64,000 nt of DNA, from positions 96,001-160,000 of the IMG/VR virus record IMGVR_UViG_3300013121_000022. One strand, given 5' to 3'. The notes beneath the pieces are model-generated. The model made no database searches and had not been told where the DNA came from. It was given only the letters and a program-made list of their open reading frames with translations. Each line of letters begins with the position of its first letter. The first letter of the stretch is position 1. The position numbers and the translations under genes are program-made. Shown here one piece after another: positions 28,748-60,139 of this stretch. Source of the DNA: a virus. Taxonomy: Duplodnaviria; Caudoviricetes.

Positions 28748-29196
28748 TGTTCATGAATGAAACTGGTATTTCCATAGGATTTGATACGGTAATTCCACCA
28801 AACGATTTTTGCGTTTTTGTTGTACCCATATTTGATATCAAGTAGTCATTCGTTTTCACCGAGCAAACCGCCTGAACTTAGATGCTGTAGAGTTGCTAAC
28901 ACAGACCTGAGTGTTGTAGTTGAATCAATTAATTTCCGCTCACGTAACGAAAATTTTTTTGGAGCTGTTTTTGCTCTGTATGCTCTAACCGCAGGATCGT
29001 TATCCAAAATTATTACATTGGAAAAACCTCAAGTCTGCTTCTCTGTTCTATCACAATCTAATTCAGGTCGTTCAAATCACCGATTGGCGGTTGAGGCATT
29101 ATACTGCGACAAACCCATTGTGTTTGCATATGTAGATCGACATCGAAAGACATTCCTTGACTTAGTTGCTGAACTAGGGTAATATCAACGTGATCG

Positions 29197-29570
29197 GCGC
29201 AGATCAAGTTGTCGAGCTCGAAAGAGTTAGGAACTTCCCGACGATACAGGAGCAATCCTGAAAACCCTCCACATGAAAACAGCAAGTGTGGACAGTTCGA
29301 CTGAACTGATGTCAACGGCAACAGAGAACATTCCGCTCGAAAGAGTAACGGGTGAAAAGGACGGTGATACCCGTCCGGCATGTCAAGGTAACTTGCTTGC
29401 ATAGGCGACAGGACAGGGGATCGCAAGGTGGCGCAAGATAGGCTACGGTTTATCTTGTAGAACCGCAGTATAAACGGTACGACAGAATAACACTCAGTCG
29501 CACTAGGATATACCATCAACCCGATGAGAAAGATGACAACCTAAACAGAATCGGGGGTATGATCGGCGCA
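29197..29570 (+). ncRNA. rnpB: RNase P RNA (phage-encoded)
   Basis: AGGAACTTCCCGAC pairs with AAACAGAATCGGGGGTAT (P4, bulged U); GCAACAGAGAAC..CCGC; GGGTGAAAAGG; GCAAGG; P2 GTTGTC/GACAAC; GAAA-capped P3. Confidence 0.88.
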
Positions 29571-29649
29571 GATTGGTTCTTGACAAAAAAATATAACCGA
29601 TCCATAATAATCTCAACTTCCACTATCTCACAGAAAGAGGATACCGAAC

Positions 29650-31757: not shown

Positions 31758-32651
31758 ATGGGATACGCACACATCGAAAATCTTTACAAGCCACATGTAA
31801 AAGAACTTCTCTTTATGTTTCGGGAAGTCTATGCACTCGAAAAGATACATGGATGCTCCGCCGAAATTAAGTTTACCGCCGAGATTGGAACTGGCAAAGT
31901 TGATGTTAGTTTTGACGGTGGGCTATTGTCGCCAGAACAATTCTCAAACATTATCGACAAGTCTATTGTAGAAAAGTTCGTGGAACTGAACAAGCAATAC
32001 AACAACGAAAGCATGTCTGTGTTTGGTGAGCTCTACGGTGGATCGATCAACCATATGAGCAAGGTGTATGGAGAGGAAAAACGCTTTGTTGTTTTTGATG
32101 TCAAGGTTGGCGATGTTTTCTTGTCTGTGCCACAGGCCGAAGACACAGCGAATCGACTTGGACTGGAATTCGTATCTTACAAGCGCATTCCGGTAACGAT
32201 TGAAGCCATTGATGCTGAACGGGACGCCGAATCGGTTCAGGCTATCCGCGTCGGAATGGGTTCTGGCAAATATCGCGAAGGTGTGGTTTTGCGTCCGTTG
32301 TTTGAAGCACGACTGAATAACGGCGAGCGAATTGTAGCCAAACACAAGCGTCCAGAACATTCTGAAACAAAGACTCCGCGAACTCTGAATGAGGATGAAC
32401 TGAAAGTCCTGTCCGATGCCAATGAAGTTGCAGAGGAATGGGTTACGGAAACCAGACTCCAGCATGTCTTGGACAAGATTACCGGAACACGAGATATGAA
32501 GTTGATGGGAACGGTAATAAAGGCCATGACTGAGGATGTGTACCGAGAGGCGCATGGCGAAATCGTGGAATCCAAAGCTATTCAAGGCGCAATCAGCAAG
32601 AAAACGGTTGCGCTTTACAAGAACTACCTTGAAACCGACAGCGTTCAATAA
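31758..32651 (+). CDS. RNA ligase, Rnl2-like
   Basis: motif I EKIHG, FGELYG, FVVFDV, EGVVLRP, AKHK. Confidence 0.85.
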   Translation: MGYAHIENLYKPHVKELLFMFREVYALEKIHGCSAEIKFTAEIGTGKVDVSFDGGLLSPEQFSNIIDKSIVEKFVELNKQYNNESMSVFGELYGGSINHMSKVYGEEKRFVVFDVKVGDVFLSVPQAEDTANRLGLEFVSYKRIPVTIEAIDAERDAESVQAIRVGMGSGKYREGVVLRPLFEARLNNGERIVAKHKRPEHSETKTPRTLNEDELKVLSDANEVAEEWVTETRLQHVLDKITGTRDMKLMGTVIKAMTEDVYREAHGEIVESKAIQGAISKKTVALYKNYLETDSVQ

Positions 32652-32888
32652 CAAAATTGAAGCACTGCTAGTCGATTTACATCGATGGGGAGTGCTTCAA
32701 TGTATTATCCGACAAGATCAAATGTTTTGCACTCCACCTGTAGCCGGACGTCCATCAATTGTTGATATGTTTGAAGTTGAATGGAGCGTTCATTCAGTCA
32801 AAGACGTTCCAGAGATCGTCTTGTACGTGACGGACACTACAGCCTACACGCGATTGCACAAATGGAATCAGAAAGAAAGCTTACTGAC

Positions 32889-33614
32889 ATGGACAATCTA
32901 AAAGAGATTGGGCAAACATGGATTGTTGAATTTCCAAGAACAAAACATCTTCCATTTCGCCCTAACGCCACTCGTGATGACCTAATTGCTACCCAAGTTC
33001 AGGCAAGCATTATTTTTGATCCGGCAGTTGTCGTATCAACAACTGAAAAAGTAGACGGGGCACAATTGGGAGTTGGAATTGTTGATGGTAATCTTTGTAT
33101 CCGCAACCGAAATCACGTGCTCAATAAAGGTTATCTCAGTCGCGGGGCGGCAGGCCGACAATTTGCGCCAACATGGACGTATTTTTACAAGCGAATTGAA
33201 GCACTAAAGGCAATGGAAAAGTTCGCAGGTGAGCCTTTGGTAATTTACGGAGAGTGGTTGTATGCGGTTCATTCAATTGTTTATGACACTTTAACTGTTC
33301 CGTTTTTGAGTTATGATATTTATTTGCCGGAACAAAAGATATTTATTAAAGGTGCTCTGGCTAGATCGCTACTAGAAAACTTTGGATGGTCAGTTGTTGA
33401 ACAACTTGAAAACAAGGGATCGTATGAAGAATTGTCGAAGTTGTGTCACCAAAAATCGGCCTATGGATCGACTAAGCGAGAGGGTGTTTATCTGTCGGTC
33501 TGCGCCGATAAAAAATCAGTCACACATCGATTCAAAATGGTACGTTCAGATTTCATTACTGGTGAACACTGGTCTAAGCGATCTATTATCAAGCAACCTA
33601 TGGTGAGGTTTTAA
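32889..33614 (+). CDS. RNA ligase-family nucleotidyltransferase
   Basis: FPRTKHL, EKVDG, YGEWL..HSI.Y, EGVY, KMVR. Confidence 0.85.
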   Translation: MDNLKEIGQTWIVEFPRTKHLPFRPNATRDDLIATQVQASIIFDPAVVVSTTEKVDGAQLGVGIVDGNLCIRNRNHVLNKGYLSRGAAGRQFAPTWTYFYKRIEALKAMEKFAGEPLVIYGEWLYAVHSIVYDTLTVPFLSYDIYLPEQKIFIKGALARSLLENFGWSVVEQLENKGSYEELSKLCHQKSAYGSTKREGVYLSVCADKKSVTHRFKMVRSDFITGEHWSKRSIIKQPMVRF

Positions 33615-34195: not shown

Positions 34196-34290
34196 GGTTT
34201 GGTAGCCAGACAAATATAACAAGTTGGCCGCACTCAATTTTTTAAGTTTTACCTATTGACATTTAGTTCATAAGCGTCTATACTGTCTTC

Positions 34291-34463
34291 TGTAAGTGAG
34301 AGAGAGATTGAGAGAGACGGGCGCAAGTCCGGCGAGTACGCAAGTTCTGATATACCACTCAGCCAGCCAGATAGAACGGTGGAGCGAACAATGGAGTGGC
34401 AACCCGATAAGCAGGGTTGGCAAGCGCACTGATAGTAGGAACGCTGTCAGGCTCAATCTTACA
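34291..34463 (+). ncRNA. candidate structured ncRNA (~170 nt)
   Basis: own promoter TTGACA(34256)-17-TATACT; ends pair TGTAAG/CTTACA and GATTGAG/CTCAATC; GCAA-capped hairpins. Confidence 0.65.
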
Positions 34464-34492
34464 AAAAACACAACCGAAAGGATAACGCGGCA

Positions 34493-34684
34493 ATGTCAAA
34501 ACTCAATTTGGGCGACACGGTGTATGTAAAGGGTTTTCGGAATCAAGGGACAACGACCATTGCTCGGTTTATGATCAATAAAAAGGGCGGAGTTGTATTG
34601 AACAATCCGATTAACGGTTTGTGGTGCTGGAATGTGAAGGATTTGGTTAAGATCAAATTACCAAAGGTGTTTAATGGAAATTAG
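34493..34684 (+). CDS. hypothetical protein
   Basis: AAGGA RBS. Confidence 0.55.
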   Translation: MSKLNLGDTVYVKGFRNQGTTTIARFMINKKGGVVLNNPINGLWCWNVKDLVKIKLPKVFNGN

Positions 34685-34859
34685 CGTGGGATTGAAAGTC
34701 ACATGGAATGACAACGGATTAACCCGATGGGATTATTTTGAACTTGTCATTCGCAACGGGCAGGAATTAGTTTTGTCGGGTTTTGGAAAAACCGTTCACA
34801 TCAAGGTTGAGGACTTGAAATATATCGAACCATTTGGAAAGTTACCAGAAAACGGTTGA
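34674..34859 (+). CDS. hypothetical protein
   Basis: AAGGTG RBS, overlap. Confidence 0.5.
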   Translation: MEISVGLKVTWNDNGLTRWDYFELVIRNGQELVLSGFGKTVHIKVEDLKYIEPFGKLPENG

Positions 34860-35073
34860 TGCCATTTGTATACTCTGTGATGTAGAAATCCAGCATACCG
34901 CGTTCGCGGAGGCATAAGAATGGGTGCAACCTGTGGTCTTGTCTGAGTAGGCAAAGGTCATGAACTTTGTTTGAATGGCATCATCCGTTTTCTGATAAAT
35001 TCGGTGGTACGATAACGCAAGTAATCTTGAAATTGATCCTTGACAGGATAGCAAAAGCGACTATAATTTTTTT

Positions 35074-36078
35074 CTGTTGGCCTGAACTTTACAAAAATTA
35101 CTGAGGGCGCTAATGGAGTTCAACTCTCCATCAGTAACATATCCAAATTGGAGTGGGGTAGTGCATACCCAAATCAAGGGAGGAAGCAAGCGAAAGCAAG
35201 CTGAAACCTGAGATTGAAACTCTAAGGCGGAGGGAACATCTAGTTCCCTTAGATAAAACCCGTAAGGGTAATAAAGGCGGATACCAATGGTCTGCCGGAT
35301 GCAAATCTCAACTAGACGAACTATCTTCGCTTGTGTTGGTGTAGGTGGTCGGCAAGAAATTGCAGGCTACTGAACAGCTAAGCCCACTGAAAAGGTGGTG
35401 AGTCCGAAAGACAAAACAATAAGATAGAGGGTAACAAGTTCGTTCGCAAGACGGGCGCTTACAAGACAATCGGCATCACTCCTAGCGGAACTTGCCAGAA
35501 AGTTAAGCGGTTACTGACAGCAAATCAGTGGCGGCAAAATGTGTGGTGTGGTAAAGGGATGCGTAAAAGTGTCTACAACCCGACAGGATACATCACGCAC
35601 AATTGGAAAAACTCTGCCTGAAGCTCAGGCTTGGCCTCTTAAGCAAATGCAATCGCAAAAATAAAGTCCTGTAGGTGTACGAGATTTACAGATACCCCTT
35701 CATTACCGTAACCAATCGGTGAATCAAGGCCACGAGCTTTGATATGTGCAACGAGTGAAGGATGTTCGGCGGCTTGCAACCGTTGGGCATCAGGCGCGGC
35801 GAGTGCATAGAAGATTTCGTAAACCTGAGTGGGTTGGGCTAAACCCACAAAAAGAAACTAAGCGACATCGTAAGCACAACGATACGCAAGGATAGCGGGG
35901 TAAAGTGTAGGATGATTGGGGTAACTCGATCTTGGAACAGAGCGGACACTGTGACGAACAGAACTGCTTGACTCTACACTAAAAAACGGAATGTGGCCTG
36001 AACCGTTTCTTGAAACGACTACCCTCTGGACTATATAGTCGAATGGACATATAATTCAGAGAGTGGTCATTTTTGTTT
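35074..36078 (+). ncRNA. large (~1 kb) structured ncRNA, possibly GOLLD-like
   Basis: no ORF of 60 aa or more on +; promoter TTGACA(35040)/TATAAT(35062); about 20 helices with GNRA loops; terminator-like hairpin at 36017-36078. Confidence 0.8.
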
Positions 36079-36101
36079 AACCGAAAGATGGAAAATTTTA
36101 C

Positions 36102-36698
36102 ATGAAGATGAATGCTGTTATGGTCGGAGATGTACACGGCAAGTGGGATCAATTCAAGTCGATTGCTGAAAAGGCAACGATGCCTGTGTTTCAGGTCGGT
36201 GACTTTGGATTTGGACTACGGAATCGTAAGCCCAACATCAAAGGCGATTGGCGTTTCATTCGCGGCAATCATGACGATCCAAGTTTAGCTAAAAAGGACA
36301 GTCATTATGCTGGCGACTTTGGCGTTTGGAACGGAGTGTTCTTTGTTTCGGGCGCAGCTTCAATTGATGTTGGTCAGCGTACTACTGGTGTTGACTGGTG
36401 GCCGGATGAACAATTGAATTACACGCAAATGCAAGAGGCATACAATCTGTATGTAAGATTTAAGCCAAAAATTGTTATCACTCATGATTGTCCAGATCAT
36501 TTCAAGTCGCATTTTATGACCTATGTCATCAAGCGATCCTCGACCGGAGTTTTATTGAATGCACTATATGAATTTCATGAGCCAGAGTTGTGGGTTTTTG
36601 GTCATCACCACAAAAGTCAGCAAACTCGATTCGGAAAAACAATGTTTGTTGGCCTTAGAGAACTTGAAACCCAAGAAATTGAATGGACGATTCCATAA
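36102..36698 (+). CDS. metallophosphoesterase
   Basis: GDVHG, VGDFG, RGNHD, THDCP, FGHHH. Confidence 0.92.
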   Translation: MKMNAVMVGDVHGKWDQFKSIAEKATMPVFQVGDFGFGLRNRKPNIKGDWRFIRGNHDDPSLAKKDSHYAGDFGVWNGVFFVSGAASIDVGQRTTGVDWWPDEQLNYTQMQEAYNLYVRFKPKIVITHDCPDHFKSHFMTYVIKRSSTGVLLNALYEFHEPELWVFGHHHKSQQTRFGKTMFVGLRELETQEIEWTIP

Positions 36699-42399: not shown

Positions 42400-42475
42400 G
42401 GAGTTGTCAGCATAACAGGCCATGCGTCCCGACTTCGCCTAAAGAAGATATGAGTTCGAGTCTCATACAGCTCCC
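42400..42475 (+). tRNA. tRNA-like gene with aberrant anticodon arm
   Basis: acceptor GGAGTTG/CAGCTCC and T-arm ATGAG-TTCGAGT-CTCAT intact; no canonical anticodon stem. Confidence 0.65.
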
Positions 42476-42480
42476 AAATA

Positions 42481-60037: not shown

Positions 60038-60134
60038 GGATAGGCGGCAATGGTTGGCGCAAGCAGACCGCTTGGAAAGCGGTTAGTCGTGATAGTGATA
60101 TTGCGGCTTATGGGTTCGATCCCCATCCTATCCT
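60038..60134 (+). tRNA. tRNA-Ser(GGA)
   Basis: ACCGC-TTGGAAA-GCGGT, long variable arm, atypical D-arm. Confidence 0.8.
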
Positions 60135-60139
60135 CAATA

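What the first reader, a model, noticed from the sequence alone, without database searches (positions are those of the whole stretch)
35074..36078. ~1-kb giant structured non-coding RNA with its own promoter and terminator
Seen: 1 kb with no sizeable + strand ORF in a gene-dense genome. It is bounded by TTGACA(35040)/TATAAT(35062) and a long hairpin plus U-tract (36017-36078). It is packed with helices: AGGGAAC/GTTCCCT, ACCC-GTAA-GGGT, CTATCTT/AAGATAG, CCAC/GTGG around GAAA, GTGTGGTGT/ACATCACGC, CCTTCATT/AGTGAAGG, GTGGGTT/AACCCAC, AGTGTAG/CTACACT. Known: GOLLD and ROOL are giant phage- and tRNA-associated RNAs of unclear function. Inference: a divergent GOLLD-like RNA or a new giant RNA class.
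Basis: partly seen in the sequence, partly recalled or inferred. Interest (0 to 1): 0.9.

Follow-up and report, generated by a model that had tools for sequence, protein, structure and literature searches.

The report
New giant phage RNA in tRNA island
The gene-free kilobase is a real gene for a roughly 1,000-base folded non-coding RNA that matches no catalogued RNA family; an otherwise unrelated phage keeps it among its tRNA genes with base changes that preserve the fold, which adds a rare new class to the few giant phage RNAs known.

Summary
Window 35074-36078 (+) is the core of the largest ORF-free gap in a complete 172.5-kb phage genome. It has no coding signal, a perfect sigma-70 promoter and a long hairpin followed by a U-tract. 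It folds far better than shuffled sequence on the + strand only (z -4.7, against -2.1 on the - strand).

It is not GOLLD, ROOL, OLE, HEARO or an intron. Rfam gave nothing below E=3, although the same search picks up this phage's divergent RNase P RNA.

A covariance model built from one domain found one homologue, in an otherwise unrelated 150-kb phage that shares only 9 ORFs with this one. That copy also sits inside a ~45-tRNA array, has its own promoter and is about 1 kb long. Sequence identity is about 51%, but block order and spacing are kept over about 900 nt. In the 3' half, 34 of 84 modelled pairs changed on both sides and stayed paired; slid controls gave 0-2.

Both copies carry a tRNA-like acceptor/T-arm minihelix near the 5' end. 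Both also have a hairpin loop whose 6-nt palindrome is kept by a compensatory change, which makes it a candidate kissing loop.

Only two members were found, there are no expression data, and the function is inferred. The scan has noted other giant phage RNAs on other DNA, but none resembles this one in sequence.

The parts
35040..35067 (+). Sigma-70 promoter, TTGACA-16-TATAAT. The inferred transcription start is near 35074.
   Evidence: 12/12 match. It is one of 11 perfect sites in the genome against about 0.06 expected, and several of the others drive tRNAs. The homologue has TTGACA-17-TACAAT.
35074..35097 (+). A-rich 5' leader, conserved as CU(G/C)AAC(U/C)UUA(C/A)AAAAAU just upstream of the minihelix.
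   Evidence: Alignment with the homologue.
35098..35138 (+). tRNA-like minihelix. A 7-bp acceptor-like stem (35098-35104 / 35131-35137) stacks on a 5-bp T-arm-like stem (35114-35118 / 35126-35130) with T-loop UUCAACU. A 9-nt GG-containing linker replaces the D and anticodon arms, and there is a discriminator-like C at 35138.
   Evidence: Read directly from the sequence. It is one of the few T-arm-like hairpins outside tRNA genes in the window. The homologue has GAAUGUG/CACAUUC and GCGG-UUCGAUU-CCGC at the same place: the acceptor stem is 7/7 paired with 6 double changes, and the T stem has 2 double changes.
35148..35225 (+). Domain A, closed by UUGGAGU/ACUCUAA. It contains a hairpin at 35156-35170 whose loop AGUGCA is conserved.
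   Evidence: The closing helix is 7/7 paired in the homologue with 6 double changes. The AGUGCA block is identical in both. Support is weaker than for the 3' half.
35231..35307 (+). Row of hairpins: AGGGAAC/GUUCCCU; ACCC-GUAA-GGGU; GGCGGAU/GUCUGCC; GAU-GCAA-AUC.
   Evidence: Pair probabilities 0.81-0.95. The homologue keeps 6/7, 4/4 (GUCC-GAAA-GGAC) and 6/7 pairs. The ATAAAGG block is identical.
35321..35427 (+). Domain B, a multi-hairpin domain closed by CUAUCUU/AAGAUAG, with GNRA-type hairpins inside.
   Evidence: The closing helix covaries (UGUAUGC/GCAUACG in the homologue, 6 double changes). A single-sequence model built on the MFE fold of this domain did not find the homologue, so the internal fold is uncertain.
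35540..35599 (+). Domain C, a long 10-11-bp helix (UGUGUGGUGUG/UACAUCACGCA) capped by an inner hairpin.
   Evidence: Pair probability 0.96. 10/10 to 11/11 paired in the homologue with 5-6 double changes.
35674..35825 (+). Domain D, a 152-nt four-way domain with 52 pairs. This is the part that found the homologue.
   Evidence: Model R1 hits the homologue at 30.6 bits, E 1.3e-4 per genome, over the full model length. 97% of cells are paired and 21 pairs changed on both sides, against 1-2 in slid controls.
35773..35779 (+). Heptaloop C-UUGCAA on the 12-bp helix of domain D. The 6-nt self-complementary sequence is a candidate intermolecular kissing loop.
   Evidence: The homologue's loop is C-UAGCUA, also a 6-nt palindrome, kept by a compensatory U/A swap. 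Two co-located 6-nt palindromes were seen where about 0.18 are expected (my estimate from the counts).
35829..35887 (+). Two hairpins: GUGGGUU/AACCCAC and GCG-AUCGU...ACGAU-CGC.
   Evidence: 7/7 and 5/5 paired in the homologue with 4 and 3 double changes.
35905..35981 (+). Domain E, a three-way junction closed by AGUGUAG/CUACACU. It holds the most conserved sequence of the RNA: GGUAACUCG....UGGA......CGGACACUGUGA.GA.CAG.ACUG (35920-35966).
   Evidence: Identical blocks of 9 and 12 nt. Helices are 7/7, 7/7, 6/6 and 4/4 paired in the homologue. The MAFFT-based count for 35826-35990 gives 32 pairs, 100% paired, 13 changed on both sides, against 0-2 in slid controls.
35986..36012 (+). Last conserved hairpin (AACGG-loop-CCGUU) followed by UUUC. 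This is the likely 3' edge of the conserved core.
   Evidence: Alignment. In the homologue the same ...ACCCAUUUC is followed directly by the first base of a tRNA-Gly gene.
36017..36078 (+). Intrinsic-terminator-like long hairpin plus U-tract. It is not shared with the homologue.
   Evidence: Pair probabilities of 0.98 or more. z is about -4 on both strands. Promoter-like sites for the downstream phosphatase gene overlap it.

Best explanation
This is a stand-alone gene for a roughly 0.93-1.0-kb, multi-domain, structured non-coding RNA. It belongs to a previously uncatalogued family, carried inside the tRNA islands of large phages that encode much of their own tRNA supply and tRNA-handling machinery.

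Shown:
- The stretch is non-coding and folds strongly on one strand only.
- It has its own consensus promoter and a hairpin/U-tract end.
- An otherwise unrelated phage has a collinear homologue with extensive compensatory base-pair changes.
- The 3' half (domains D and E) is the conserved core; the 5' half is looser.

Inferred:
(a) Host RNA polymerase transcribes it strongly, like the neighbouring tRNA units.
(b) The tRNA-processing machinery defines its ends. RNase P would act at the 5' tRNA-like minihelix in both phages, and at the tRNA that abuts the 3' end in the homologue, in the way RNase P cutting at the tRNA-like mascRNA makes the 3' end of MALAT1.
(c) It works as an architectural RNA of the GOLLD/ROOL type. 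It would self-associate through the palindromic loop of domain D and act within the phage's tRNA economy, for example by holding, shielding or decoying tRNA-directed factors.

My odds: a real conserved structured RNA gene of a new family, about 0.85. tRNA-type end processing, about 0.5. Self-assembly into a dimer or multimer, about 0.3.
For: Non-coding.

Promoter and terminator.

Strand-specific fold: z -4.73 against -2.11, and 16% G-U pairs.

Homologue:
- The single-sequence model R1 hit G021 over its full length, E 1.3e-4 per genome.
- An independent BLAST block lies exactly 118 nt downstream in both phages.
- Fourteen anchors keep their spacing to within 10 nt or less over 890 nt.
- Domain D has 21 of 52 pairs changed on both sides; the 3' region has 13 of 32.
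- This phage's confident helices are kept 173/188 against 157 +/- 3 in shuffles.
- The homologue itself folds at z -6.7.

Context: both copies lie in arrays of 43-46 tRNAs, in the same orientation as the tRNAs. Both phages carry an RNase P-like RNA, RtcB, a CCA-adding enzyme and a metallophosphatase, yet share only 9 ORFs.

Minihelix.

The homologue's RNA ends one base before a tRNA-Gly.

Palindromic loop kept by a compensatory change.

For comparison, GOLLD and ROOL are phage RNAs near tRNA islands that assemble through kissing loops, and GOLLD has a conserved 3' region and a variable 5' region (PMC12286853).
Against: - Only two members, so covariation rests on one pairwise comparison. Part of it is on an alignment fitted to the model.
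- The MFE-based model of domain B did not find the homologue, so the 5' half is less secure and the full secondary structure is not settled.
- The minihelix is 12 stacked pairs here but only about 10 in the homologue. T-loops also occur as plain structural modules, so RNase P processing is not shown.
- The palindromic-loop argument rests on one loop (p about 0.01-0.05).
- No conserved protein neighbour gives a functional handle.
Confidence: 0.72

Rival explanations
1. It is a highly divergent member of GOLLD or ROOL that the Rfam models cannot recognise.
For: It has the same niche (phage tRNA island) and size class, and a conserved 3' part with a variable 5' part, as in GOLLD.
Against: GOLLD (RF02032) gave no match at E of 10 or less in either genome. 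ROOL (RF03087) gave only an 8-bit chance hit elsewhere in the genome. The sensitive Rfam scans of both loci were empty, while the same scan recovers this phage's divergent RNase P RNA at E 2e-17.
Confidence: 0.06
2. It is not one RNA but a string of independent small RNAs, or decayed tRNA genes, transcribed together and cut apart.
For: The conserved helices found so far are local or domain-level (span of 142 nt or less). No conserved helix ties the two ends together. A tRNA-like fragment sits at the 5' end.
Against: Two phages with almost no other shared DNA keep all the domains in the same order and spacing over about 900 nt. Each copy has one promoter and one end. Relaxed ARAGORN finds no further tRNA remnants down to 80% of its default thresholds. 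The region has no internal repeats and no paralogues in the genome.
Confidence: 0.12
3. It is a long structured 5' leader (cis-regulator or attenuator) of the downstream metallophosphatase operon.
For: It lies directly upstream of the phosphatase gene on the same strand, and the terminator-like hairpin could act as an attenuator.
Against: In the homologue the RNA is followed by a tRNA and a terminator, and the phosphatase lies about 97 kb away. Phosphatase genes in other phages have no such leader. Separate promoter-like sites for the phosphatase overlap the hairpin.
Confidence: 0.04
4. It is protein-coding after all: small proteins, a recoded gene or a pseudogene.
For: A 32-codon ORF at 35113 has a GAGGG five bases upstream.
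Against: There is no coding signal, no family match, no recoding and no conserved ORF. The only tblastn similarity to the homologue covers the conserved nucleotide block in several frames on both strands.
Confidence: 0.02
5. It is a DNA-level element, such as a replication origin or packaging site.
For: Large non-coding gaps in phages are sometimes origins.
Against: It has no iterons or repeats and is not A+T-rich: about 46% G+C against 43% for the genome. The fold signal is strand-specific with many G-U pairs. Compensatory changes preserve RNA pairing.
Confidence: 0.02

Closest known systems
GOLLD RNA (Rfam RF02032)
   Same: Giant (over 800 nt) phage or prophage RNA, often in or beside tRNA islands. 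The 3' region is conserved and the 5' region variable. tRNAs are sometimes embedded or adjacent. Function is unknown. It assembles through kissing loops (PMC12286853).
   Different: There is no detectable sequence or structure match. Here a tRNA-like minihelix sits at the 5' end. Multimer formation is only suggested by one palindromic loop.
ROOL RNA (Rfam RF03087)
   Same: Large ornate phage or prophage RNA near tRNA islands, with no known protein partner. It forms a nanocage held by kissing loops and A-minor contacts.
   Different: No match to the model in this region. This RNA is almost twice as long. The family appears far rarer, with 2 records found.
MALAT1-mascRNA and tRNA-punctuated transcripts; stable RNAs of the T4 tRNA cluster (from my own knowledge, not checked here)
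   Same: A long or stable non-coding RNA whose end is set by RNase P or RNase Z acting on an adjoining tRNA or tRNA-like structure. The homologue's RNA abuts a tRNA-Gly, and both copies carry a tRNA-like minihelix.
   Different: Processing has not been shown here. The tRNA-like unit lacks D and anticodon arms and lies at the 5' side.
Other giant phage RNAs noted by this scan on other genomes (e1-5610703, e1-3429191, e1-5362877)
   Same: 0.6-1.0-kb uncatalogued structured RNAs beside phage tRNA genes, several with tRNA-like elements.
   Different: No sequence look-alike to either copy is in the scan's index. Whether any is the same family could not be tested.

Membership tests
GOLLD (RF02032) | Match to the curated covariance model of the conserved 3' region (gathering score 150 bits). 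| tested here: not met
   No match at E of 10 or less in the whole genome of either phage. Nothing in the region-only scans.
GOLLD (RF02032) | Phage or prophage location near a tRNA island. | tested here: met
   Both copies lie inside arrays of 43-46 tRNAs. This is a shared habit, not a defining structure.
ROOL (RF03087) | Match to the curated covariance model (gathering score 99.1 bits). | tested here: not met
   Only an 8.2-bit hit, E 4.5, at an unrelated place in the genome.
OLE, HEARO, raiA, group I and group II introns, tmRNA, RNase P, rRNA (all of Rfam 15) | Any match to the family model in the region. | tested here: not met
   The best E-values are 3.4-5.7, to unrelated short families. 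The same holds for the homologue. As a positive control, this phage's RNase P RNA scores E 2e-17 in the same mode.
tRNA (RF00005), for the 5' minihelix only | Full cloverleaf with D and anticodon arms. | tested here: not met
   ARAGORN and Rfam call no tRNA here. Only the acceptor-like stem and the T arm are present.
tRNA-like minihelix (RNase P / CCA-enzyme substrate type) | An acceptor-like stem of about 7 bp stacked coaxially on a T stem with a UUCRANY T-loop. | tested here: met
   7+5 bp with UUCAACU here; about 10 bp with UUCGAUU in the homologue; both stems covary. Cleavage itself cannot be tested with these tools.
Self-assembling ornate RNAs (functional class of GOLLD, ROOL, OLE) | Evolutionarily conserved intermolecular contacts, such as kissing loops. 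| tested here: inconclusive
   One loop keeps a 6-nt palindrome through a compensatory change. That is two sequences only, with no structure.

The most novel reading that the evidence does not exclude
This is a third, independent class of giant self-assembling phage RNA. A transcript of about 1 kb would be cut to size by the tRNA-processing machinery, possibly including the phage's own RNase P RNA. It would then dimerise or multimerise through the palindromic loop of domain D and act as an RNA-only compartment or decoy within a phage-encoded tRNA supply-and-repair programme.
Probability: 0.22. Interest if true: 0.88.

Novelty: new variant of a known kind. Interest (0 to 1): 0.72.

Why it matters
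Very few bacterial or phage RNAs approach 1 kb without being rRNA or introns. GOLLD, ROOL and OLE were recently shown to build RNA-only cages and dimers, but their function is still unknown (PMC12286853).

This RNA is unrelated in sequence and occupies the same niche, phage tRNA islands. Its two carriers both encode tRNAs, an RNase P-like RNA, RtcB and a CCA-adding enzyme. That strengthens the link between giant RNAs and phage tRNA biology.

It also gives a new cryo-EM and biochemistry target with testable handles: a tRNA-like module, a candidate kissing loop, and a 3' end defined by a tRNA.

It shows as well that such RNAs can be too rare for standard comparative discovery. Only two records were found across IMG/VR, JGI metagenomes, GTDB genomes and GenBank phages.

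Tried and rejected
- Rfam at gathering and E-value thresholds on the window, the region and the homologue: only tRNAs and RNase P-like RNAs.
- blastn of both copies against GenBank phages: no match.
- Synteny through the downstream phosphatase: homologues are 48% identical or less, and their contigs have no 1-kb gap.
- Relatives through TerL and RNA ligase: this phage is an orphan. The best TerL relative is 58% identical on a 12-kb fragment.
- BLAST of the RNA against 50 phosphatase-bearing IMG/VR genomes: only short chance hits, one of which later proved collinear.
- Model R2 (3' region) on those 50 genomes, on 50 RtcB-bearing genomes and on 5 relatives of the homologue's TerL: nothing beyond the homologue itself.
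- Exact-pattern scans with the conserved blocks:
  - IMG/VR found only the homologue.
  - JGI metagenomes found only an identical copy of the homologue, ERZ761584.
  - GTDB genomes found nothing, twice.
- RtcB relatives of the homologue in the 5.8-billion-protein set: the one 65% relative lies on 7-kb contigs without the RNA.
- Single-sequence model of domain B: no hit in the homologue.
- My greedy 'consensus helix' search was too permissive (z only 2.4) and is not used as evidence.
- GNRA-hairpin enrichment was not significant: 4 against 1.6 +/- 1.3.
- The 10-nt direct repeat TGGCCTGAAC at both ends is expected by chance about 0.5 times and is not kept as a repeat in the homologue.
- The predicted 5'/3' closing pairings (35091-35101 with the U-tract; 35081-35092 with 35900-35911) are not conserved.
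- mafft-qinsi was unavailable.

Full report
WHAT THE WINDOW IS. The window is bases 96,001-160,000 of a complete 172,504-bp virus record with direct terminal repeats. It carries 43 tRNA genes covering nearly all amino acids, with no suppressor. Its tail-tape-measure, terminase and portal genes mark it as a tailed phage. It is an orphan. The closest terminase is 58% identical on a 12-kb fragment and the rest are 30% or below. The phosphatase next to the finding has no relative above 48% among 5.8 billion proteins.

- No ORF of 80 aa or more exists on either strand from 34196 to 36101, the largest such gap in the genome.
- A codon-usage log-odds trained on the phage's own long ORFs is positive in one frame over each flanking gene and never positive from 34200 to 36000.
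- Reading any stop codon as sense opens no convincing frame, and the longest stop-to-stop frames match no Pfam or PHROG family.
- TTGACA-16-TATAAT at 35040-35067 is a 12/12 match. The genome has 11 such perfect sites where about 0.06 are expected, and some sit directly in front of tRNA genes (38746 before tRNA-Ala, 42790 before tRNA-Ile). These are therefore the phage's strong promoters for stable RNAs and early genes.
- The 3' hairpin at 36017-36068 has 21 pairs with probabilities of 0.98 or more and is followed by AUUUUUGUUU.
- Individual 7-bp helices mean little in 1 kb. The whole + strand, however, folds at -322.6 kcal/mol, z = -4.73 against dinucleotide shuffles, while the - strand reaches only z = -2.11.
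- 200-nt windows show the same asymmetry, and 31 of 196 confident pairs are G-U.
- The strand is purine-rich: A 32%, G 26%.

IT IS NOT A KNOWN FAMILY. Rfam 15 gives nothing at gathering thresholds and nothing better than E = 3.4 in a sensitive scan of 34700-36300. The GOLLD model (RF02032) finds nothing at E of 10 or less anywhere in the genome. ROOL (RF03087) gives only an 8-bit chance hit elsewhere. This negative result carries weight: the same sensitive mode recovers a full-length but sub-threshold RNase P RNA at 29196-29574 (58.9 bits, E 2e-17). Divergent RNAs of this orphan phage are therefore still visible to Rfam.

A HOMOLOGUE. Sequence searches found nothing. I then built a covariance model from the predicted fold of one domain alone (35674-35825, model R1) and searched 46 phage genomes reached through the phosphatase family.
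- One genome answered over the full model: G021 = IMGVR_UViG_3300005683_000050, 149,668 bp, 100% complete, at 30.6 bits and E 1.3e-4 per genome. The alignment is full of compensated pairs.
- An earlier weak BLAST block (query 876-899) lies in the same genome, on the same strand, exactly 118 nt downstream of that domain in both phages.
- A full-length alignment shows about 51% identity, with nine identical blocks of 6-12 nt.
- Fourteen anchors keep their spacing to within 10 nt or less over 890 nt.
- The G021 copy runs from a TTGACA-17-TACAAT promoter to the base before a tRNA-Gly(GCC) gene (G021 124,698 to 123,688, - strand; about 1,011 nt). A tRNA-Leu lies just upstream and a terminator follows the tRNA-Gly.
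- It folds at z = -6.7 and matches no Rfam family.

COVARIATION.
- On the model-guided alignment of domain D, 97% of cells pair and 21 of 52 pairs changed on both sides. When the 3' partners are slid by 1-3 columns, 1-2 pairs do so.
- On a plain MAFFT alignment of 35826-35990, RNAalifold finds 32 pairs. All are paired in both sequences and 13 changed on both sides, against 0-2 when slid.
- I took this phage's confident MFE helices and asked whether the homologue pairs at the anchored positions (+/-6 nt). The answer is 173 of 188 pairs, against 157 +/- 3 for block-shuffled sequence (z 5.4) and at most 167 for shifted mappings.
- Long helices are kept whole: the acceptor-like stem (7/7), 35540-35549/35590-35599 (10/10), 35829-35835 (7/7), 35905-35911 (7/7) and 35914-35920 (7/7).

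CAVEATS ON THE COVARIATION. There are only two sequences, and one alignment was fitted to the model. A model of domain B based on the MFE fold did not find the homologue. The 5' half is therefore looser, or its fold is mis-predicted. tblastn between the two loci shows similarity only over the conserved nucleotide block, in several frames on both strands, so the conservation is not protein-coding.

ANATOMY. The order is promoter, 24-nt A-rich leader, tRNA-like minihelix, domains A-E, last hairpin, terminator.
- The minihelix (35098-35138) has a 7-bp acceptor-like stem stacked on a 5-bp stem with the T-loop UUCAACU. A GG-containing 9-nt linker replaces the D and anticodon arms.
- It is one of very few T-arm-like hairpins in the window that lie outside tRNA genes.
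- The homologue has GAAUGUG/CACAUUC and GCGG-UUCGAUU-CCGC at the same place, so both stems covary, although about 10 rather than 12 pairs stack there.
- The strongest sequence conservation is in domain E (GGUAACUCG....UGGA......CGGACACUGUGA.GA.CAG.ACUG).
- The heptaloop on the 12-bp helix of domain D reads C-UUGCAA here and C-UAGCUA in the homologue. Both are 6-nt palindromes, related by a compensatory U/A swap. From the palindrome counts, about 0.18 co-located pairs are expected and two are seen (p about 0.01-0.05).
- The homologue has an extra 110-nt 5' domain and ends at a tRNA instead of a terminator.

CONTEXT AND LIKELY MODE OF ACTION. The two phages share only 9 ORFs at 23-47% identity. 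Those include RtcB (45%), the metallophosphatase (42%) and a CCA-adding enzyme. Both also carry about 45 tRNAs and an RNase P-like RNA. The RNA therefore travels with a phage-encoded tRNA supply-and-repair toolkit rather than with phage lineage.

I infer three things:
- strong transcription by the host polymerase;
- ends set by tRNA-processing enzymes, at the 5' minihelix in both copies and at the abutting tRNA in the homologue;
- an architectural role of the GOLLD/ROOL type, possibly with self-association through the palindromic loop.

GOLLD and ROOL are likewise phage RNAs near tRNA islands. GOLLD has a conserved 3' and a variable 5' region, and both assemble through kissing loops (PMC12286853). 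These are likenesses of behaviour only; membership was tested and failed.

RIVALS.
- A cis-acting leader of the phosphatase gene is unlikely. The homologue is followed by a tRNA and a terminator, and its phosphatase is about 97 kb away.
- A string of separate small RNAs cannot be excluded, because no conserved end-to-end helix was found. The preserved order and spacing in otherwise unrelated genomes, and the single promoter, argue for one gene.
- Coding, recoding and DNA-element readings have no support.

RARITY. Exact-pattern scans with the conserved blocks found only the homologue in IMG/VR, an identical copy of it in JGI/ENA metagenomes, and nothing in 185,579 species genomes. Model searches of 105 further phage records were empty.

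EARLIER NOTES OF THE SCAN. The scan's notes describe other uncatalogued giant phage RNAs with tRNA-like parts on other genomes. None shares sequence words with either copy.

VERDICT. This is a real, conserved, structured non-coding RNA gene of a new and rare family, in the known category of giant phage RNAs of tRNA islands. Its function is unknown, and the processing and assembly ideas are testable inferences.

Noticed in passing
window 29196-29574 (+): A full-length (model 1-367/367) but sub-threshold match to bacterial RNase P class A RNA: 58.9 bits against a gathering score of 100, E 2e-17. The phage seems to encode its own divergent RNase P RNA at the head of the tRNA array.
   Followed up: partly
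L188 16467-16662 (-) = G021 116,467-116,662: The second phage carries a 196-nt RNase P-like RNA. Its best hit is the archaeal RNase P model (51.5 bits, E 1e-11, whole model), and it lies right beside its RtcB gene. It may be a miniaturised phage RNase P RNA.
   Followed up: no
window 34855-34996 (+): A 14-bp long-range stem (CGGUUGAUGCCAUU / AAUGGCAUCAUCCG) encloses about 110 nt and is followed by UUUUCUG, just upstream of the promoter (z about -4 on both strands). A similar closed element (AAAAACAGCUUUCGG...CCGAAAGCUGUUUUUUU) follows the tRNA-Gly in the homologue (L180 about 1232-1095, - strand). These may be complex terminators or small RNAs.
   Followed up: partly
window 34196-34860 (+): Three tiled small ORFs (77, 63 and 61 aa) lie behind an 11/12 promoter at 34256. 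None shows a positive codon-usage signal, so this stretch may also be non-coding.
   Followed up: no
window 42400-42478 (+) and about 60040-60135 (+): T-arm-like hairpins with acceptor-like pairing (for example GGAGUUG...CAGCUCC around UAUGAG-UUCGAGU-CUCAUA) that ARAGORN and Rfam do not call. These may be unusual tRNAs or tRNA-like RNAs; no tRNA-Gln was called in the window.
   Followed up: no
whole genome (G000): Eleven perfect TTGACA-16/17-TATAAT promoters against about 0.06 expected, clustered in the tRNA/early region. Several lie directly upstream of tRNA genes.
   Followed up: partly
L007:15246-16484 (-), L006:14793-16490 (+), L006:5175-7202 (+), window 31758-33614 (+): A rich RNA toolkit: RtcB ligase, a CCA-adding-type nucleotidyltransferase with an HD domain, a protein with a RelA/SpoT domain, and two Rnl2-like RNA ligases in tandem just upstream of the giant RNA.
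   Followed up: partly
L188:102-2492 (-) in G021: The homologue's large terminase ORF is 796 aa. The terminase match covers only residues about 415-790, and the N-terminal 400 residues resemble primase/helicase-type ATPases. This could be a fusion or an unrecognised insertion.
   Followed up: no
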